A stretch of DNA of 64,000 nucleotides. Origin: a virus. Lineage: Duplodnaviria; Caudoviricetes. Both the position numbers and the translations under genes were made by a program. Shown piece by piece: positions 30,870-61,101 of this stretch (the stretch's first letter is position 1; each line of letters opens with the position of its first letter). The DNA lies in the IMG/VR virus record IMGVR_UViG_3300029288_000056, positions 32,001 to 96,000 of that record; one strand, given 5' to 3'. Under the pieces are notes generated by a model that was not told where the DNA came from, searched no databases, and saw only the letters and a program-made list of their open reading frames with translations.

Positions 30870-31260
30870 TAGTCTCCTCTTTGTGACAATCAGTACAAAG
30901 TGTAACGAAGTTTTCTACGTCACACTCTCCACCACCATCTTTTACCGCTAAAATGTGGTGTGCTTCCCAATGTAGGCCCTCTTGACGCGAGCTAACGCAC
31001 TGTCTACCGCACTTTGAGCAGAGTCCTTTATCGCGCAAAAAAACAACAAAGCGTAAGTACTCGTTGTCGGCCTTAATAAGGTATTCTTCCCAGTACTTTT
31101 CTTTGAACGCTTTTTTACATTCCTCAGAACAGAAGTCTTTCTTGCGTCTGTCCTCTACTGGGTTAGCGCACATCAAACAAAGATAGCGTCCGCCAATAAT
31201 GTAGCGGGTAAAACCCTTAAGCTTTAAGAAGTCGTTCCAACTGATATATCTATTCTTCAT
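30850..31260 (-). CDS. HNH endonuclease
   Basis: RDKGLCSKCG..AHHI..GG..N.VTLCTDCH. Confidence 0.85.
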   Translation of the reverse strand: MKNRYISWNDFLKLKGFTRYIIGGRYLCLMCANPVEDRRKKDFCSEECKKAFKEKYWEEYLIKADNEYLRFVVFLRDKGLCSKCGRQCVSSRQEGLHWEAHHILAVKDGGGECDVENFVTLCTDCHKEETNAQRLS

Positions 31261-31486
31261 CCGAAATGTTTTCTAAAAACTCCGCAAGTTTGCTAGCCTT
31301 CTTGCGGCCCTTTCTCTTCTTTTTAACGTTATTCGCCGAGGTATAGGCCGTAGAAAAAGCCCGACCCTCATCACCATTATATTCATCGTAAGCACTATTG
31401 AAAGTTTCTAAGAAAGCTTTTTGCTCTCTTTTATTGTACTTCTCTTTAACGGAATCAGGTAAATCCGATACAGATTTGTAAGGCAT
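31250..31486 (-). CDS. chaB: ChaB-family protein with C-terminal tag B
   Basis: MPYKSVSDLPDSVK..FLETFNSAY..E.RAF..AY; ends KKASKLAEFLE. Confidence 0.85.
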   Translation of the reverse strand: MPYKSVSDLPDSVKEKYNKREQKAFLETFNSAYDEYNGDEGRAFSTAYTSANNVKKKRKGRKKASKLAEFLENISDEE

Positions 31487-31530
31487 AGTTTATCCTTATT
31501 ATAAGAGATTAAAACTGATGTTAATTAGGT

Positions 31531-31779
31531 TCAGGAATATTTTTTATCAAAACGGGAGCGGAGGTGCATCATTACAAAGTTGTACCCTGTTTCGGGGTGG
31601 TGAGGAAGAAAGCACTCACTGCAATCTTTGAGACCGTTGTCTAGATTGTAGGTTCCGGGACATTCCCAGTTATACAACGCACATAGGCAAAACATGCAAT
31701 TCATCTCGGTAACGCCTTCTGGGAGTTTATGACACGGGTAATGAGGACACGATTTATTACTAAAGAAGCGTTCACTCAT
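31531..31779 (-). CDS. Cysteine-rich small domain protein
   Basis: CPHYPCH..NCMFCLCALY..KDCSEC..PH. Confidence 0.8.
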   Translation of the reverse strand: MSERFFSNKSCPHYPCHKLPEGVTEMNCMFCLCALYNWECPGTYNLDNGLKDCSECFLPHHPETGYNFVMMHLRSRFDKKYS

Positions 31780-32641
31780 CCCTATCACCACTACCTTCCG
31801 GGGCTACTTCCTTTTTATCACACGCGCACTCCGCACACTGACATTCGCCCTGCCCGTAGTTGTCCTTACGATCTTTAATAGCTTTTTGTAGGGCCATTCC
31901 TATGTCTAAGGCAAATTCCTCGTCGGAGCGAAGCAAATCCATGCGCCATGTGGTTTCGGTACCCGGCGATACATTATTAATATCGTCACCTAACGGACTA
32001 ATGTTCATGCTCCCCATTCCTTCACAGGCTTTGTCAAATATATACATCAGGTCCTCATCGGACATATCGTCAATTTCGGGGATATCTCCCGTATCAATCT
32101 GCTCGTGGATAACCATTCTAATCGTTGCTGCGTTTAAAAACGTATTAAGTTTACTCATTTTTCTCACATCCTTATTTGCTGCCATTTTTTCATAACGTCC
32201 CTTTGCGTCATTAAGCTGTTGTTCGGTAAACATGGGGGTCTTGAGACTGTAGGAATAATAGACGGCGGGACTCATATCCTTCCAATCATAACCTTTCCTG
32301 CTTGGTAAGCGGGTGTGTTGTATGTTTGGATCGTTGAAGAACTTCTCCCAAAGACCCTGTGCCTCATCTGAAGTTGTCGAGGAGACATCTGATGCAATCC
32401 TCCCGAATACCTGCATTGCGATAAGGTACGCGAGTGCTCCGTAGCCGTGCACCCCGTAACCGCCCTGCACCGTCCAATAACCACCTTTGTGCCACAGAGT
32501 AACACGGGCAGCCCAATCTTCGCCACGCTCATGGATGCCGGGAGCGTAAAGATAAATCCTTTTCCATGAGCCCGAAGAACCTGCGTTATCGATATACAGG
32601 CCCACATCCTCAATGCGGGCCATACTTGCGTCTAGTCTCAA
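31772..32641 (-). CDS. GNAT-like domain, internal tag B, acidic module (start revised to TTG 32641)
   Basis: MRLDAS; GYGALAYLIAM..SDEAQGLWEKF; MSKLNTFLNA (ATG at 32158). Confidence 0.7.
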   Translation of the reverse strand: MRLDASMARIEDVGLYIDNAGSSGSWKRIYLYAPGIHERGEDWAARVTLWHKGGYWTVQGGYGVHGYGALAYLIAMQVFGRIASDVSSTTSDEAQGLWEKFFNDPNIQHTRLPSRKGYDWKDMSPAVYYSYSLKTPMFTEQQLNDAKGRYEKMAANKDVRKMSKLNTFLNAATIRMVIHEQIDTGDIPEIDDMSDEDLMYIFDKACEGMGSMNISPLGDDINNVSPGTETTWRMDLLRSDEEFALDIGMALQKAIKDRKDNYGQGECQCAECACDKKEVAPEGSGDRDE

Positions 32642-59249: not shown

Positions 59250-59656
59250 CCCGCGCTCCATAGTTTAATTGCGCATTTACTAAAAGACAGTTCGTCTTTC
59301 TCTGCAGTATGTGCTGCGGGATTCCAAAATAAAAATTTATCAAATTTCTTCTCGTAAAATTTCCATAATTCGACAGGAAAAATAATGTTAGATACTTTTA
59401 CGATACTACCGTCACCTATTAATTTCATGGATGATGTTTGAATATCTTGATCGCGAAATACTAATACGAATGGTCCATAAGTTCTAGCCGCCAGACTTAA
59501 GACATGTGTCAAATAAGCGGTATAGGGTGCGTTAAAATCAGTTGGTCTTAGTCCGTTCCGCACAATACTTTGGGCATCTTCCAATTTAGGTGTACCGTGG
59601 TACCAGTCATCTGACTGATGCGCATAAGCACTAAGTAAGAATGACTGTAAACTCAT
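59246..59656 (-). CDS. YHGT-type ART-fold protein, tag B
   Basis: MSLQSFLLSA; WYHGT..AQSIVRNGL. Confidence 0.8.
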   Translation of the reverse strand: MSLQSFLLSAYAHQSDDWYHGTPKLEDAQSIVRNGLRPTDFNAPYTAYLTHVLSLAARTYGPFVLVFRDQDIQTSSMKLIGDGSIVKVSNIIFPVELWKFYEKKFDKFLFWNPAAHTAEKDELSFSKCAIKLWSAG

Positions 59657-60171
59657 ATCTCAAACGTCCATACTAACTTAACCGCGGAAGCCGGAACCGG
59701 AACTGGATAATACCAAGATCCCTTATTCCCTTCTTCGTCACTACTCAACCCTGAATCCGATATAGCACCGTCGGTTAGCTTTACTTCCCACACATCCATC
59801 GAACAAGGTGGGTCGGTTCTTCCCATATACTCTGCGTACCACCGAGCCTGTTCTAAGTTGTCAAAGAAGTAGAATCCTTTCCCTGTTGACCATCTGTCGT
59901 ACAAGGACTTAGAAGGATCGATTCCATAACGACCTATAGATTTTCGTGCTTCAATCGGAGCAACATGATATCCCGTTTTAATAGGATGGAAAACAGTAGC
60001 GGACTCGGTGGGCACCCATCTATCCTGTATGTCATAATAACCATTCTCTTTTTTGCGCTTCTCTTCAACCGCGACCAAGTCAACTTCCTCTGATGGCCCC
60101 TCTACCCAACGGTCGTACATGTCGTAGTAGCCGTCTTTACCAGAGGTTAAAAATTCCGTCAGTTTGTTCAT
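59653..60171 (-). CDS. ART-fold-like protein with duplicated GYYD..DRWV peptide, tag B
   Basis: MNKLTEFLTS; GYHVA..SI..GI..GFYF..A.WYA. Confidence 0.7.
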   Translation of the reverse strand: MNKLTEFLTSGKDGYYDMYDRWVEGPSEEVDLVAVEEKRKKENGYYDIQDRWVPTESATVFHPIKTGYHVAPIEARKSIGRYGIDPSKSLYDRWSTGKGFYFFDNLEQARWYAEYMGRTDPPCSMDVWEVKLTDGAISDSGLSSDEEGNKGSWYYPVPVPASAVKLVWTFEI

Positions 60172-60175
60172 AGTC

Positions 60176-60817
60176 TTAGTAAACCGCATTAAATATCATT
60201 CCTCCTACCTTAGTCCAAACTCGATCCCAATCCCAGTTCTTACCGGTGATCTGATCTATTTTTTGCATAAACTCCTTACCACGCTCATAAGGACCGGCAG
60301 TCTCTACGGCATCCCTTTTAAGTATATAGTAATAACCAAGTGGGTCTTTGTCGTCGTTATACCCACCAAGCGAGATTCTTAATACCTTAGATCCCTTAAT
60401 ACTATCGTTGTAAAAGTGTTGCCAAACAGCCCTTGCCCTACTAGACGTAGAGCCAGAATAATCAGCTCCTAATCCCATTCCTTCTTTACTAGCCTCTTGC
60501 ATGGCAACCAAATAAAGAATAGGGCCAGCTCCGTCAATTCTAGAACCGGCATATTCCACTGAATAATAACCATCTCGTTCTTCTATCTCGATCATAGCGT
60601 TAGCTTGTTGATATATTTTTCTACACAGAACTTGAACGGGATCGCCGTCTTCAAGCCTATCGAAACGCGCATTTTTAATCGCGTTGTCAGGCCAGTAGAA
60701 AAGGCAATATCCATCGTAACCGTAGTTGTTATATTTAACAAGATACCCGCCGGTAATAGGGCGCCTATTGGCGATCAGTTCGTCGGAACCTAATAAAAAG
60801 TTAGTCAGTTCACTCAT
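60176..60817 (-). CDS. GNAT-like, tag B
   Basis: MSELTNFLLG; GAGPILY..AMQ..TSSRARAVWQHFY. Confidence 0.75.
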   Translation of the reverse strand: MSELTNFLLGSDELIANRRPITGGYLVKYNNYGYDGYCLFYWPDNAIKNARFDRLEDGDPVQVLCRKIYQQANAMIEIEERDGYYSVEYAGSRIDGAGPILYLVAMQEASKEGMGLGADYSGSTSSRARAVWQHFYNDSIKGSKVLRISLGGYNDDKDPLGYYYILKRDAVETAGPYERGKEFMQKIDQITGKNWDWDRVWTKVGGMIFNAVY

Positions 60818-61101
60818 TAGTATTGTACCTCCACGGGTTTCACAAGTGGGTTAATATAGTTTATAAATTCGTCGCCCTTTTCTGCTTTGTAATATAGGGC
60901 GGTAGGCCGGACGCCGATGATGTTTGTATAAGCCCTTAGTAGGTCGGCATAGTTACTGAACGATGCGTTAGTTAGGAAAAGGACCCAAGCTCCGTCCATG
61001 TAGGCGGCTATCTGTCGGCCACCATGCCAAATAGAATCGTTCTCGTTGATCAGCAGATCATTGTTGAGATCGGTCCGTAAGAATGCGGTTAGTTTACTCA
61101 T
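60817..61101 (-). CDS. Hypothetical, tag B
   Basis: MSKLTAFLRT. Confidence 0.7.
   Translation of the reverse strand: MSKLTAFLRTDLNNDLLINENDSIWHGGRQIAAYMDGAWVLFLTNASFSNYADLLRAYTNIIGVRPTALYYKAEKGDEFINYINPLVKPVEVQY

What the first reader, a model, noticed from the sequence alone, without database searches (positions are those of the whole stretch)
31250..61101. Positional grammar: Ala sites flank tag B mainly on the side where a domain must be freed
SEEN: N-terminal tags mostly end in x-A right before the domain (FLNA, FLTA, FLLA, FLRA, FLMA, FLSA). Internal tags usually have Ala on both sides (TA-NKLSMFLRA, SA-SLQEFLLA, SA-SKLTDFLLA, QA-SKLTNFLLA). All six C-terminal tags have the upstream Ala but lack the downstream one (KA-SKLAEFLE, SA-NKLSAFLRG, AA-EKLRLFLLG, SA-SKLRDFLTG, AA-RSKLTSFLLG, SA-SKLTRFLLE). 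INFERENCE: the tag is an excisable unit and a protease cuts after Ala, unlike the Glu-specific T4 gp21 and phiKZ gp175. Caveat: the G/E after C-terminal tags partly reflects the overlapping RBS of the next gene, and a few N-terminal tags lack an immediate Ala.
Basis: partly seen in the sequence, partly recalled or inferred. Interest (0 to 1): 0.85.

Follow-up and report, generated by a model that had tools for sequence, protein, structure and literature searches.

The report
Alanine-bordered address tag on phage cargo
An uncultured 297-kb phage puts the same ten-residue peptide, bordered by alanines, at the start, middle or end of about fifty otherwise unrelated enzymes; it most likely works like the capsid-loading tag of phage T4, but with alanine instead of glutamate at the presumed cutting points, which nobody has yet tested.

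Summary
The window is part of a 297-kb IMG/VR phage with no close relative. It carries 57 copies of tag B, [M/A]-[S/N/G]-(K)-L-T-x-F-L-x-(x)-A, all on the minus strand. About 35 are N-terminal, 12 internal and 8 C-terminal (six in the window).

- **Selection:** it acts on the protein. All Leu, Thr and Ala codons and both Ser codon boxes are used.
- **Upstream border:** all 20 internal and C-terminal tags have Ala where N-terminal tags have Met (p about 3e-15).
- **Downstream border:** 32 of 45 N-terminal and internal tags end in Ala, almost always as L-x-A. None of the 8 C-terminal tags does (Fisher p 2e-4).
- **Confound:** in C-terminal tags the next gene's ATG lies 4-17 nt after F-L, and in 5 of 8 its ribosome-binding site fills those codons.

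- L4, F7, L8 and A10 fall on the positions that target (4, 7) and process (8, 10) the T4 capsid targeting sequence.
- The tag is disordered in structure models.
- It sits on unrelated families (GNAT-like, ART-like, zincin-like).
- A second tag and the head-module proteins also show early [L/I/F]-x-A.

No cleavage or packaging was shown. First-stage notes of this scan had already flagged these tags on the same genome.

The parts
31268..31297 (-). C-terminal tag B: KA-SKLAEFL-ENISDEE*, in the 78-aa ORF 31250-31486
   Evidence: it is this protein's only tag
35978..36007 (-). C-terminal tag B: SA-NKLSAFL-RGIE*. The next gene (MIFIRCD..., R family) starts with an ATGA overlap
   Evidence: the R-G codons AGAGGA are the next gene's SD
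36555..36584 (-). C-terminal tag B: AA-EKLRLFL-LGDNYDRLQ*, in the 629-aa R-tag-X-tag protein
   Evidence: AGGTGAT acts as SD and the next ATG is 13 nt after F-L
40550..40579 (-). C-terminal tag B: SA-SKLRDFL-TGKTD*. The next gene (MKFLRIDKDE, R family) starts with an ATGA overlap
51681..51710 (-). C-terminal tag B: AA-RSKLTSFL-LGQS*, at the end of an R-domain protein. The next gene starts MSIWLRWDDG
   Evidence: GGGG acts as SD, with an ATGA overlap
54110..54139 (-). C-terminal tag B: SA-SKLTRFL-LEPK*, at the end of an R-like protein. The next gene starts MSVWLRWDDG
   Evidence: the L-E codons TTGGAG hold the SD GGAG, with an ATGA overlap
35436..35465 (-). internal tag B: TA-NKLSMFLRA-A, in the R-tag-X protein 35028-35972
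37899..37928 (-). internal tag B: AA-ALTRFLQA-E, in protein 36531-38420
38926..38955 (-). internal tag B: AA-SLTRFLLA-DFVSKG, in the R-tag-zincin protein 38422-39471
   Evidence: AlphaFold: residues 172-178 (KAASLTR) have pLDDT below 50
39984..40013 (-). internal tag B: SA-SLQEFLLA-DFQSTG, in the R-tag-zincin protein 39468-40538
42391..42420 (-). internal tag B: A-SKSRLTEFLLQA-YTHQG, in the R-tag-ART-like protein 42010-42948
44210..44239 (-). internal tag B: SA-SKLTDFLLA-WQRSP, in the NUDIX-tag-ART-like protein 43739-44728
45874..45903 (-). internal tag B: TA-SRLTEFLIE-PLSASL, in the R-tag-S protein 45355-46434. It has Glu, not Ala, at +3
51076..51105 (-). internal tag B: SA-SLTNFLLA-DYRSKG, in protein 50563-51675 with a zincin-like C-terminal domain
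53439..53468 (-). internal tag B: QA-SKLTNFLLA-APVCKD, in protein 52923-54104
32129..32158 (-). tag B with Met inside an open frame: S domain, then RK-MSKLNTFLNA-A. It keeps an SD-like AAGGA/GTGAG upstream
   Evidence: read as a likely recent gene fusion or a nested start
33370..33399 (-). N-terminal tag B: MSKLTDFLTA-A
43494..43523 (-). N-terminal tag B: MSLLQFLLNA
45333..45362 (-). N-terminal tag B: (L)NKLTDFLLA-E, with a TTG start
46941..46970 (-). N-terminal tag B: (V)GKLSQFLNA-S, on an S-family (GNAT-like) protein
47283..47312 (-). N-terminal tag B: MNRLAFFLSA-S
47432..47461 (-). N-terminal tag B: MNDLFDFLSE-D, with no Ala
47901..47930 (-). N-terminal tag B: MHELLNFLLS-YRRVPDEFYHGT, on an ART-like W-family protein, with no Ala
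48721..48750 (-). N-terminal tag B: MSLQNFLLLA
49260..49289 (-). N-terminal tag B: MNLNNFLTEA, on an S-family protein
52790..52819 (-). N-terminal tag B: MNLQYFLLHCA
55407..55436 (-). N-terminal tag B: MNKLTKFLRA-G
58514..58543 (-). N-terminal tag B: MTKLTNFLMA-WQRRRGEYYHGT, on a W-family protein
59223..59252 (-). N-terminal tag B: MSLTNFLLA-WQRSPDEYYHGT, on a W-family protein
59630..59659 (-). N-terminal tag B: MSLQSFLLSA-YAHQS, on a W-family subgroup protein
60142..60171 (-). N-terminal tag B: MNKLTEFLTS-G, with no Ala
60788..60817 (-). N-terminal tag B: MSELTNFLLG-S, on an S-family protein, with no Ala
61072..61101 (-). N-terminal tag B: MSKLTAFLRT-D, with no Ala
1056..23190 (-). Six further N-terminal tag B copies outside the finding's range, with F codons at 1067, 2205, 6092, 11683, 22553 and 23172. 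They are interleaved with 15 tag A (MKYFKN) genes

Best explanation
Tag B is a portable address peptide of about ten residues. It most likely acts as a capsid-loading signal of the T4 CTS kind.

**Proposed mechanism.** L4, F7 and L8 form the hydrophobic face of a helix that folds only on binding and docks cargo enzymes in the prohead. The cargo includes GNAT-like, ART-like, NUDIX and zincin-like domains. The two borders of the tag are the places where the polypeptide is broken.
- The break can be genetic. A start codon sits exactly where internal tags have the upstream Ala, or the next gene's SD and ATG sit where the downstream Ala would be.
- Where the chain is continuous, the break is by proteolysis after Ala: x-[S/A]-A|S upstream and L-x-A| downstream.
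- The likeliest enzyme is the HK97/Mu-type prohead protease candidate in the head module that ends about 7 kb before the window's start.

**Shown here.** The motif and its three positions. Selection at the protein level. The Ala statistics. Disorder of the tag in models. Unrelatedness of the tagged families. The coincidence of gene boundaries with the two borders.

**Inferred.** Capsid targeting, cleavage, which bond is cut, and which enzyme cuts it.

The missing downstream Ala of C-terminal tags is explained mainly by overlap with the next gene's translation signals. It is therefore only weak evidence for a rule that a site exists only where a domain must be freed.
For: **The tag is real and selected as a protein.**
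- There are 57 tags with invariant L, F and L, and synonymous sites vary freely, including both Ser codon boxes and all four Ala codons.

**Borders.**
- Upstream Ala occurs in 20 of 20 internal and C-terminal tags.
- Downstream Ala occurs in 32 of 45 N-terminal and internal tags, as L-x-A in 30 of 32, in both registers FLxA and FLLxA.
- The one internal tag that keeps Met also keeps an SD. Met to Ala needs at least two base changes, so Ala itself appears to be selected.

**Gene architecture.**
- All 8 proteins with a C-terminal tag lack an N-terminal one. For 7 of them it is the only tag.
- The next gene starts 4-17 nt after F-L, four times with an ATGA overlap.
- Untagged S-family genes start as MQ-AARR... 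or ML-NA..., at the tag/domain junction.

**Structure and families.**
- In the AlphaFold model of a tagged GNAT-like protein (pLDDT 87.8), residues 1-8 score below 50 and residues 11-20 average 85.
- In the R-tag-zincin model the upstream border, residues 172-178, scores below 50.
- Families S, W, DF and R are unrelated by hhalign, with probability below 1%.

**Known precedent.**
- The T4 CTS is MKTYQEFIAE (PMC8442874). Residues 4 and 7 act in targeting, 8 and 10 in processing (PMC9026906).

**Other sequences.**
- Distant S-family homologues in other metagenomic contigs start with phi4-x-x-[F/Y]7-[I/V]8 ... [L/I]-x-E. In two contigs the same leader also sits on non-S proteins.
- Tag A has Ala at residues 7-12 in 15 of 15 proteins, against 24% of other proteins.
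- Head-module ORFs have [L/I/F]-x-A in residues 4-25 in 11 of 18 cases, against 21% elsewhere (p 2.5e-4). Ala is the only one of the 20 residues enriched in this way, and Glu is not.

**Head module.**
- A Mu-type portal and a terminase lie just upstream on the same strand.
- A 215-aa ORF between the portal and the scaffold has prohead-protease look-alikes.
Against: - There are no proteomic or experimental data, and no close relative exists in which to test conservation.
- Known CTS peptides are N-terminal and end in Glu. Internal copies have no precedent. The only C-terminal precedent is the propeptide of T4 Alt.
- 13 of 45 N-terminal and internal tags lack the downstream Ala.
- Seven tags carry Glu at +3, and four of the eight C-terminal tags carry Gly there. 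P1 specificity is therefore not clean.
- In the R-tag-zincin model the second half of the tag and the downstream border are drawn as a helix that runs into the domain. That would hinder cutting there.
- The upstream and downstream borders share only the Ala.
- About fifty different cargo proteins in one capsid is a great many, and roughly fifteen genes in the array carry no tag.
- The head-module enrichment rests on my own crude start-codon calls and on a motif chosen after seeing the data.
Confidence: 0.45

Rival explanations
1. The tag is an uncleaved docking peptide. It binds the capsid interior or another hub, much as an encapsulin cargo-loading peptide or a short linear motif does. It works from any position, and the flanking Ala residues are only small linker or helix-cap residues.
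For: - The tag occurs at N-terminal, internal and C-terminal positions, and nearly every protein in the array has at least one copy.
- It is disordered or only conditionally helical in models.
- The residue after the upstream Ala is S, N, G or T, all good helix N-caps.
- The C-terminal tags show that the L-x-x-F-L core and the upstream Ala are kept without the downstream Ala.
Against: - A linker would tolerate Gly, Ser, Thr or Pro, yet Ala is found in 20 of 20 cases, using all four codons.
- L-x-A is kept in two registers.
- Ala also closes the unrelated tag A and is enriched early in head-module proteins.
- Cargo bound to the shell would have to be released before ejection. T4 achieves this by cleavage.
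Confidence: 0.25
2. The tags are processing sites, but the prohead protease is not the enzyme, or the bond after Ala is not the one cut. Candidates are the five zincin-like (HExxH) domains that are themselves tagged cargo, acting in the capsid or after injection as proposed for polyvalent proteins. Another candidate is a host protease that cuts before the Ala, as Prp cuts the ...LQFF'A leader of L27 and of phage 80alpha head proteins.
For: - The DF family keeps HE-x-x-H and a downstream E-G-x-V-D-A.
- Its best sequence hits in the PDB are SprT-like Spartan (E 0.055).
- Foldseek gives collagenase peptidase domains (probability 0.98, E 0.045) and ArdC.
- Iyer et al. 2017 propose that zincin-like peptidases process multidomain virion-delivered proteins (PMC5512222).
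- Three zincin-like domains sit immediately after an internal tag.
- The Prp motif MLxx(D/N)LQ(F/L)F'A(S/H)KK resembles K-L-T-(D/N)-F-L-(L)-A in outline (PMC9405229).
Against: - All structural and sequence matches to zincins are below the usual significance thresholds.
- The Prp motif differs in register, and the phage has no Prp gene. The host is unknown.
- The head-module enrichment for [L/I/F]-x-A points to the head protease.
Confidence: 0.15
3. The tag is an address for something other than the capsid. Examples are recognition by the phage's own ClpX or another unfoldase, delivery to a phage compartment, or assembly into one large intracellular complex.
For: - The tag is a portable peptide on unrelated enzymes.
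- An earlier first-stage note reports a clpX gene and protease-fold paralogues elsewhere in this genome. I did not check this.
Against: - The array abuts the head module on the same strand.
- The pattern matches the T4 CTS position by position.
- The cargo types (ART-like, GNAT-like, NUDIX, zincin) are those known or proposed for virion-delivered effectors.
- I found no match to the ClpX recognition motifs I could recall from memory.
Confidence: 0.1
4. There is no separate function. The motif is the conserved N-terminal remnant of one expanded paralogue superfamily, or a DNA-level recombination or regulatory cassette at gene starts.
For: - Most tagged domains fall into a few large paralogue families, with about 26 S-domain copies.
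- Distant S homologues also have a conserved N-terminal leader, even upstream of S domains inside giant proteins.
Against: - The tag is shared by families with hhalign probability below 1%.
- It lies outside the folded domain.
- It occurs after R domains and at C-termini.
- Synonymous sites are fully scrambled, which excludes a DNA element.
Confidence: 0.03

Closest known systems
Phage T4 capsid targeting sequence (CTS, MKTYQEFIAE) of internal proteins IPI-III, removed by prohead protease gp21 (Mullaney and Black 1996; reviewed in PMC9026906, PMC3012670, PMC8442874)
   Same: - Both are ten-residue peptides shared by otherwise unrelated proteins.
- Both have a hydrophobic residue at position 4, Phe at 7, an aliphatic residue at 8 and the presumed P1 residue at 10.
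- In both, cargo genes are clustered and hypervariable.
- In both, the cargo includes host-modifying or anti-defence enzymes. T4 Alt, an ADP-ribosyltransferase, is likewise packaged and trimmed, at both ends.
   Different: - Position 10 is Ala here, not Glu.
- Twelve copies are internal and eight are C-terminal.
- There are 57 copies spread over about 75 kb, against a handful in T4.
- No S77 (gp21) family match was found. The candidate protease looks HK97/Mu-like.
- Nothing has been shown experimentally.
Polyvalent proteins of phages and conjugative elements, with zincin-like metallopeptidase processing (Iyer, Burroughs, Anand, de Souza, Aravind 2017, PMC5512222)
   Same: - Effector domains (GNAT-like, ART-like, NUDIX, zincin-like) are strung together in one polypeptide.
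- They are encoded next to Mu-type head genes.
- Release of single domains by proteolysis is presumed.
- The S domain of this phage also occurs inside proteins of 2000-4300 aa in other viral contigs.
   Different: - Here most domains are separate genes or two- to three-domain proteins.
- They are joined by one repeated, sharply defined linker peptide.
- No such universal inter-domain tag is described for polyvalent proteins.
Herpesvirus assemblin maturation and release sites ([V/L/I]-x-A|S; for example YLQA-T and VQA-S in pseudorabies virus, PMC4498786)
   Same: - Assemblin is a capsid maturation protease that cuts after Ala and before Ser or Thr.
- The upstream border here is x-[S/A]-A|S in 15 of 20 cases.
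- The downstream border is L-x-A.
   Different: - The P3 residue at the upstream border is mostly Lys.
- The residue after the downstream border (P1') is not Ser.
- The link to the phage enzyme is only a look-alike hit from the ESM Atlas.
N-terminal leader MLxx(D/N)LQ(F/L)F'A of ribosomal protein L27 and of phage 80alpha capsid and scaffolding proteins, cut by host Prp (PMC9405229, PMC5744158)
   Same: Both are short N-terminal leaders with K-L ... F-[F/L] followed by Ala, shared by phage head proteins and removed during assembly.
   Different: - The cut is before the Ala.
- The spacing between Leu and Phe differs by one residue.
- No Prp gene is present in this phage.
- The leader is not known on cargo arrays or at internal positions.

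Membership tests
T4-type capsid targeting sequence | A short peptide (about 10 aa) shared by otherwise unrelated proteins | tested here: met
   57 copies. Families S, W, DF and R are unrelated by hhalign. The tag lies outside the fold.
T4-type capsid targeting sequence | Key residues at positions 4 and 7 (targeting) and at 8 and 10 (processing) | tested here: met
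   L4, F7 and L8 are invariant in 57 of 57 tags. A10, or A11 with L-x-A kept, occurs in 32 of 45. The positions come from PMC9026906. This is a pattern match only; function was not tested.
T4-type capsid targeting sequence | Glu at the cleavage position ([L/I]-x-E) | tested here: not met
   Ala is the main residue at that position. Glu occurs at +3 in only 7 tags.
T4-type capsid targeting sequence | N-terminal location | tested here: not met
   12 tags are internal and 8 are C-terminal.
T4-type capsid targeting sequence | A gp21-family (Peptidase_S77) prohead protease in the genome | tested here: inconclusive
   PF03420 found nothing, but the control genomes were also silent. The 215-aa ORF L004:7110-7757 has S77, S78, S80, Mu-like_Pro and DUF2213 look-alikes in the ESM Atlas, with TM up to 0.60. 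It has no Pfam or PHROG hit.
T4-type capsid targeting sequence | Tagged proteins are inside the virion and the tag is removed | not testable with these tools
   The phage is uncultured and no proteome is available.
Polyvalent proteins (Iyer et al. 2017) | Several effector domains in one polypeptide | tested here: met
   About 14 proteins have two or three domains. Examples are NUDIX-tag-ART-like, R-tag-zincin and S-tag-S. The other domains are single genes.
Polyvalent proteins (Iyer et al. 2017) | An embedded zincin-like metallopeptidase | tested here: inconclusive
   HExxH is conserved in five domains. Spartan matches at E 0.055. Foldseek gives collagenase at probability 0.98 and E 0.045, and ArdC at E 0.23. 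All are below the usual thresholds.
Polyvalent proteins (Iyer et al. 2017) | Association with portal/MuF-type head genes | tested here: met
   Portal_Mu PF06074 matches at E 4e-41 in the adjacent head module. The genes are adjacent, not fused.
Assemblin-type cleavage site | [V/L/I]-x-A|S | tested here: inconclusive
   At the upstream border P1 is Ala in 20 of 20 and P1' is Ser in 15 of 20, but P3 is aliphatic in only 5 of 20. At the downstream border P3 is Leu in 30 of 32, but P1' is varied.
Prp-cleaved L27-type leader | Motif MLxx(D/N)LQ(F/L)F'A(S/H)KK and a Prp protease | tested here: not met
   The register differs. No PF04327 match exists in the phage, while the controls did respond. The host is unknown.
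Encapsulin cargo-loading peptide | A short terminal peptide that binds the inner face of an HK97-fold shell and is not removed | not testable with these tools
   Only the flexibility of position is comparable. No sequence likeness was tested, and binding could not be assessed.

The most novel reading that the evidence does not exclude
A jumbo phage loads about fifty different enzymes into its capsid with one position-independent ten-residue address tag. The tag is excised at both ends by a maturation protease that cuts after alanine ([S/A]-A|S and L-x-A|). The same two borders double as gene boundaries, so proteolytic and genetic splitting of a cargo polyprotein would be interchangeable. This would be the largest virion-delivered effector arsenal with a readable loading code, and a phage head protease with assemblin-like Ala specificity.
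Probability: 0.3. Interest if true: 0.85.

Novelty: new variant of a known kind. Interest (0 to 1): 0.62.

Why it matters
If the reading holds, the cargo of an uncultured giant phage could be listed from sequence alone. About fifty candidate injected enzymes, including GNAT-like, ADP-ribosyltransferase-like, NUDIX and zincin-like domains, would be marked by one peptide.

The rule L4-F7-L8-x-A would give a compact tag for loading foreign proteins into capsids. It would have a processing residue different from the Glu used by T4 and phiKZ.

The reading also predicts exact mature N-termini, for example WQRSP..., DFVSKG..., DYRSKG... and YTHQG.... That makes it directly testable by mass spectrometry or with cloned head genes.

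The parallel leaders found in marine contigs, which end in L-x-E, suggest that tagged cargo arrays are widespread in uncultured phages.

Tried and rejected
- **DNA-level repeat or cassette:** rejected. Synonymous positions are scrambled, and both Ser codon boxes and all Ala, Leu and Thr codons are used.
- **One superfamily with a conserved first helix:** rejected.
- **Search for relatives in which to test conservation:**
  - Megablast and tblastn against cultured phages gave nothing, or only Mu-like portals at 27% identity.
  - The search for related loci either failed or found nothing.
  - The search for homologous proteins returned only the query itself.
  - All near hits of the HMM search were the phage's own proteins.
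- **Scan of IMG/VR for ATG-S-K-L-T-[D/E]-F-L:** it gave 28 single matches, in unrelated genes of small phages. One is in a tail-gene row and one is internal. I treat them as chance.
- **Pfam and PHROGs:** they gave no family for the S, W, DF or R domains, the scaffold, the candidate capsid protein or the candidate protease. One search was a mistyped request.
- **ESM Atlas look-up of the R domain:** nothing usable.
- **Complex prediction:** I submitted a 45-residue tagged N-terminus with the two scaffold-like proteins and the candidate protease. It returned no verdict, with a score of 0.01. This counts neither for nor against binding.
- **PF07068 and PF12699 in the genome:** no match.
- **A 2A-like skipping site at the NPF/NPY motif before internal tags:** considered and dropped, because there is no NPGP. 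The motif is the conserved end of the R domain.

Full report
**Setting.** The window is bases 32,001-96,000 of a 297,328-bp IMG/VR virus record, about 94% complete. Nearly all genes run on the minus strand. The phage has no close relative among cultured phages, in IMG/VR or in the large protein collections. A head module lies just upstream of the window on the same strand, with a large terminase, a Mu-type portal (PF06074, E 4e-41), an HNH endonuclease, a 215-aa ORF, two acidic scaffold-like proteins and a 349-aa candidate capsid protein. The ESM Atlas look-alikes of the 215-aa ORF are prohead proteases: DUF2213 at TM 0.60, and Peptidase_S78, Mu-like_Pro, S77 and S80. This is a lead, not a proof.

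**The observation.** A six-frame scan finds the core L-x-x-F-L, embedded in [M/A]-[S/N/G]-(K)-L-T-x-F-L-x-(x)-A, 57 times. All copies are on the minus strand, between genome 33 and 108 kb, plus one at 243,962. I class about 35 copies as N-terminal, 12 as internal and 8 as C-terminal (six in the window). One internal copy has Met, and two copies are doubtful.

The conservation is at the protein level. Leu uses six codons, Thr and Ala use four each, and Ser uses both AGY and TCN. That excludes a DNA repeat, promoter or recombination cassette.

**The alanines.** Background Ala is 6.1%.
- All 20 internal and C-terminal tags have an Ala just upstream. In 17 it sits exactly where N-terminal tags have the initiator Met (p about 3e-15). 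The logo there is x-[S/A]-A|[S]-K-L.
- Downstream, Ala is at +3 or +4 after F-L in 22/33 N-terminal and 10/12 internal tags (p about 4e-20 against chance).
- It is absent from all 8 C-terminal tags (Fisher p 2.3e-4; window only p 0.006).
- In 30 of the 32 Ala-bearing tags the end reads L-x-A. This holds for both registers, FL-x-A and FL-L-x-A.

The positional grammar is therefore real.

**The confound.** In all C-terminal tags the next gene's ATG lies 4-17 nt after the F-L codons, four times as an ATGA overlap. In five of eight the +2/+3 codons are that gene's Shine-Dalgarno sequence: AAGGAG, GGAG, GGGG, AGGTGAT, AGAGGA. That is why Gly and Glu appear there. Gly (4 of 8) or Glu (2-3 of 8) might still be cuttable. 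Seven tags in all carry Glu at +3.

**What the architecture adds.**
- Gene boundaries fall on the two borders of the tag. The start codon replaces the upstream Ala in N-terminal tags. The next gene starts where the downstream Ala would be in C-terminal tags.
- Untagged S-family genes begin MQ-AARR... or ML-NA..., that is, at the tag/domain junction.
- All eight proteins with a C-terminal tag lack an N-terminal one, and for seven it is their only tag. The break is therefore placed so that the upstream protein keeps a tag.
- The same tag-plus-domain unit occurs both as a free gene and behind another domain. An example is MSLTNFLLA-WQRSP... against NUDIX-...SA-SKLTDFLLA-WQRSP....
- The single internal tag that keeps Met also keeps an SD. 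This looks like a recent fusion.
- Met to Ala needs at least two base changes, and single-step neighbours (Thr, Val, Leu, Ile, Lys, Arg) are not seen. Ala itself appears to be selected.

**What is tagged.** All-against-all BLAST groups the domains into a few paralogue families.
- *S family, about 26 copies*. A profile finds 929 distant homologues among 1.8 billion representative proteins. With that alignment AlphaFold gives pLDDT 87.8. Foldseek lists mostly GNAT acetyltransferases, weakly (E 0.01-0.1, probability up to 0.97). In the model residues 1-8, the tag, score below 50 and have no secondary structure. Order begins right after the Ala.
- *W family.* It starts with an invariant Y-H-G-T, and its best PDB sequence hit is PARP16 at E 0.8. 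I read it as ART-like, as a lead only.
- *DF family.* It keeps HExxH. Its best hits are Spartan (E 0.055) and, by fold, collagenase peptidase domains and ArdC. I read it as zincin-like.
- *R family.* It never has an N-terminal tag and is always followed by one.
- A NUDIX domain is significant in Pfam.
- Profile-profile comparison gives below 1% probability for any pair of S, W, DF and R.

The tag is therefore portable, not a family remnant. In the R-tag-zincin model (pLDDT 77.7) the upstream border, residues 172-178, scores below 50. The second half of the tag is drawn as a helix that runs into the zincin-like domain.

**Comparison with what is known.** The T4 CTS is MKTYQEFIAE and is cut once, after residue 10 (PMC8442874). 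Suppressor analysis placed targeting at residues 4 and 7 and processing at 8 and 10 (PMC9026906). Tag B reads M1-S2-K3-L4-T5-x6-F7-L8-x9-A10. Its invariant residues are 4, 7 and 8, and its most frequent flanking residue is 10. T4, phiKZ, 201phi2-1 and SPN3US all cut after Glu.

Distant S-family homologues from other metagenomes begin with the same phi4/aromatic7/aliphatic8 pattern, followed by [L/I]-x-E-[A/K/S]. In two contigs (L035 and L037, the latter close to a TARA Oceans contig) the leader is shared by S and non-S proteins of very different lengths. Tagged arrays thus seem widespread, and this phage differs in ending the tag with Ala. S domains also lie inside proteins of 2000-4300 aa in large viral contigs. 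That recalls the polyvalent proteins of Iyer et al. 2017, which are proposed to be processed by zincin-like peptidases.

**Independent hints for an L-x-A rule.**
- All 15 tag A (MKYFKN) proteins have Ala at residues 7-12, against 24% of other proteins. Nine have [L/I]-x-A.
- In the head module, 11 of 18 ORFs have [L/I/F]-x-A within residues 4-25, against 21% of 386 other untagged ORFs (p 2.5e-4). Among all 20 residues only Ala is enriched in this way, Glu is not, and overall Ala content is similar.
- These counts rest on my own start-codon calls and on a motif chosen after seeing the data, so they are suggestive only.
- Herpesvirus assemblins show that a capsid maturation protease can cut after Ala (YLQA-T, VQA-S; PMC4498786).
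- The Prp/L27 leader (...LQFF'A) is a rival model in which the cut comes before the Ala. Its register differs, and the phage has no Prp gene.

**Verdict.** The reading "excisable address tag cut after Ala" is the best available, but it is inferred. I give about 0.45 to a CTS-like loading tag whose borders are break points, and about 0.3 to excision at both Ala residues by an Ala-specific head protease.

The specific argument from asymmetry, that a site exists only where a domain must be freed, is weak because of the ribosome-binding-site overlap. The invariant upstream Ala and the L-x-A ending are the stronger facts.

First-stage notes of this scan had already flagged the tag arrays on this same genome.

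Noticed in passing
window 61101-64382 (-): A 1093-aa protein in the middle of the tagged array matches the alpha-2-macroglobulin family (PF00207, E 4.6e-11 on the part inside the window). This is an unusual protein for a phage and may be a protease-trapping or shielding protein.
   Followed up: no
window 43745-44209, 47457-47900, 58094-58513, 58548-59222, 42016-42390, 59255-59629 (-): Six paralogous domains start with an invariant Y-H-G-T and have a later E-C-W. Their best PDB sequence hit is PARP16 (E 0.8). They look like H-Y-E-type ADP-ribosyltransferases. One copy is fused behind a NUDIX domain.
   Followed up: partly
window 38428-38925, 39474-39983, 50566-51075, 30315-30869, 52923-53430 (-): Five domains have a conserved HExxH and a downstream E-G-x-V-D-A. 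Weak hits go to Spartan/SprT, collagenase peptidase domains and ArdC. They are candidate zincin-like processing peptidases, and three sit directly after an internal tag.
   Followed up: partly
window 30857-30869, 35022-35034 (-); L005:10156-10168 (-): Three untagged proteins of different families all start M-L-N-A. These are the last residues of tag B (..F-L-L-N-A) with the targeting half missing.
   Followed up: no
window 1085-24599 (-): A second N-terminal tag (MKYFKN) sits on 15 proteins. All 15 have Ala at residues 7-12, and nine have [L/I]-x-A.
   Followed up: partly
L004 (genome 13001-32000), ORFs between genome 13.8 and 28 kb: Head-module proteins are enriched for [L/I/F]-x-A within their first 25 residues (11 of 18 against 21%). 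Ala is the only residue enriched in this way. Examples are ...GRRIFA-EGG, ...KYLHA-DQG and MAERLEA-QKF. The candidate capsid protein instead starts MEQLQREFIP, which is CTS-like in outline.
   Followed up: partly
L035 (Logan ERR14949522) and L037 (ENA ERZ5402580; close to a TARA Oceans contig): Other metagenomic contigs carry rows of genes of very different lengths that share an N-terminal leader such as MKxLR(K/Q)YIRxxLLxE. The leader ends in [L/I]-x-E and sits on both S-family and non-S proteins. This is the same design with Glu.
   Followed up: partly
L043, L047, L055, L056, L060, L061, L063 (IMG/VR contigs of 55-180 kb): The GNAT-like S domain (G-Y-G-P-x-L-Y-x-x-A-M) is embedded in giant proteins of 2000-4300 aa. 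A leader-like helix (...LDSTLxELLGGAGIS) sits just before it.
   Followed up: no
window 56016-57041 (-): A gene with a zinc ribbon, NUMOD3 and a phage endonuclease I-like domain interrupts the tagged array. It is probably a homing endonuclease.
   Followed up: no
genome 243,962 (outside the window): One isolated tag B (MGKLNEFLNA-A) lies 135 kb away from the array.
   Followed up: no
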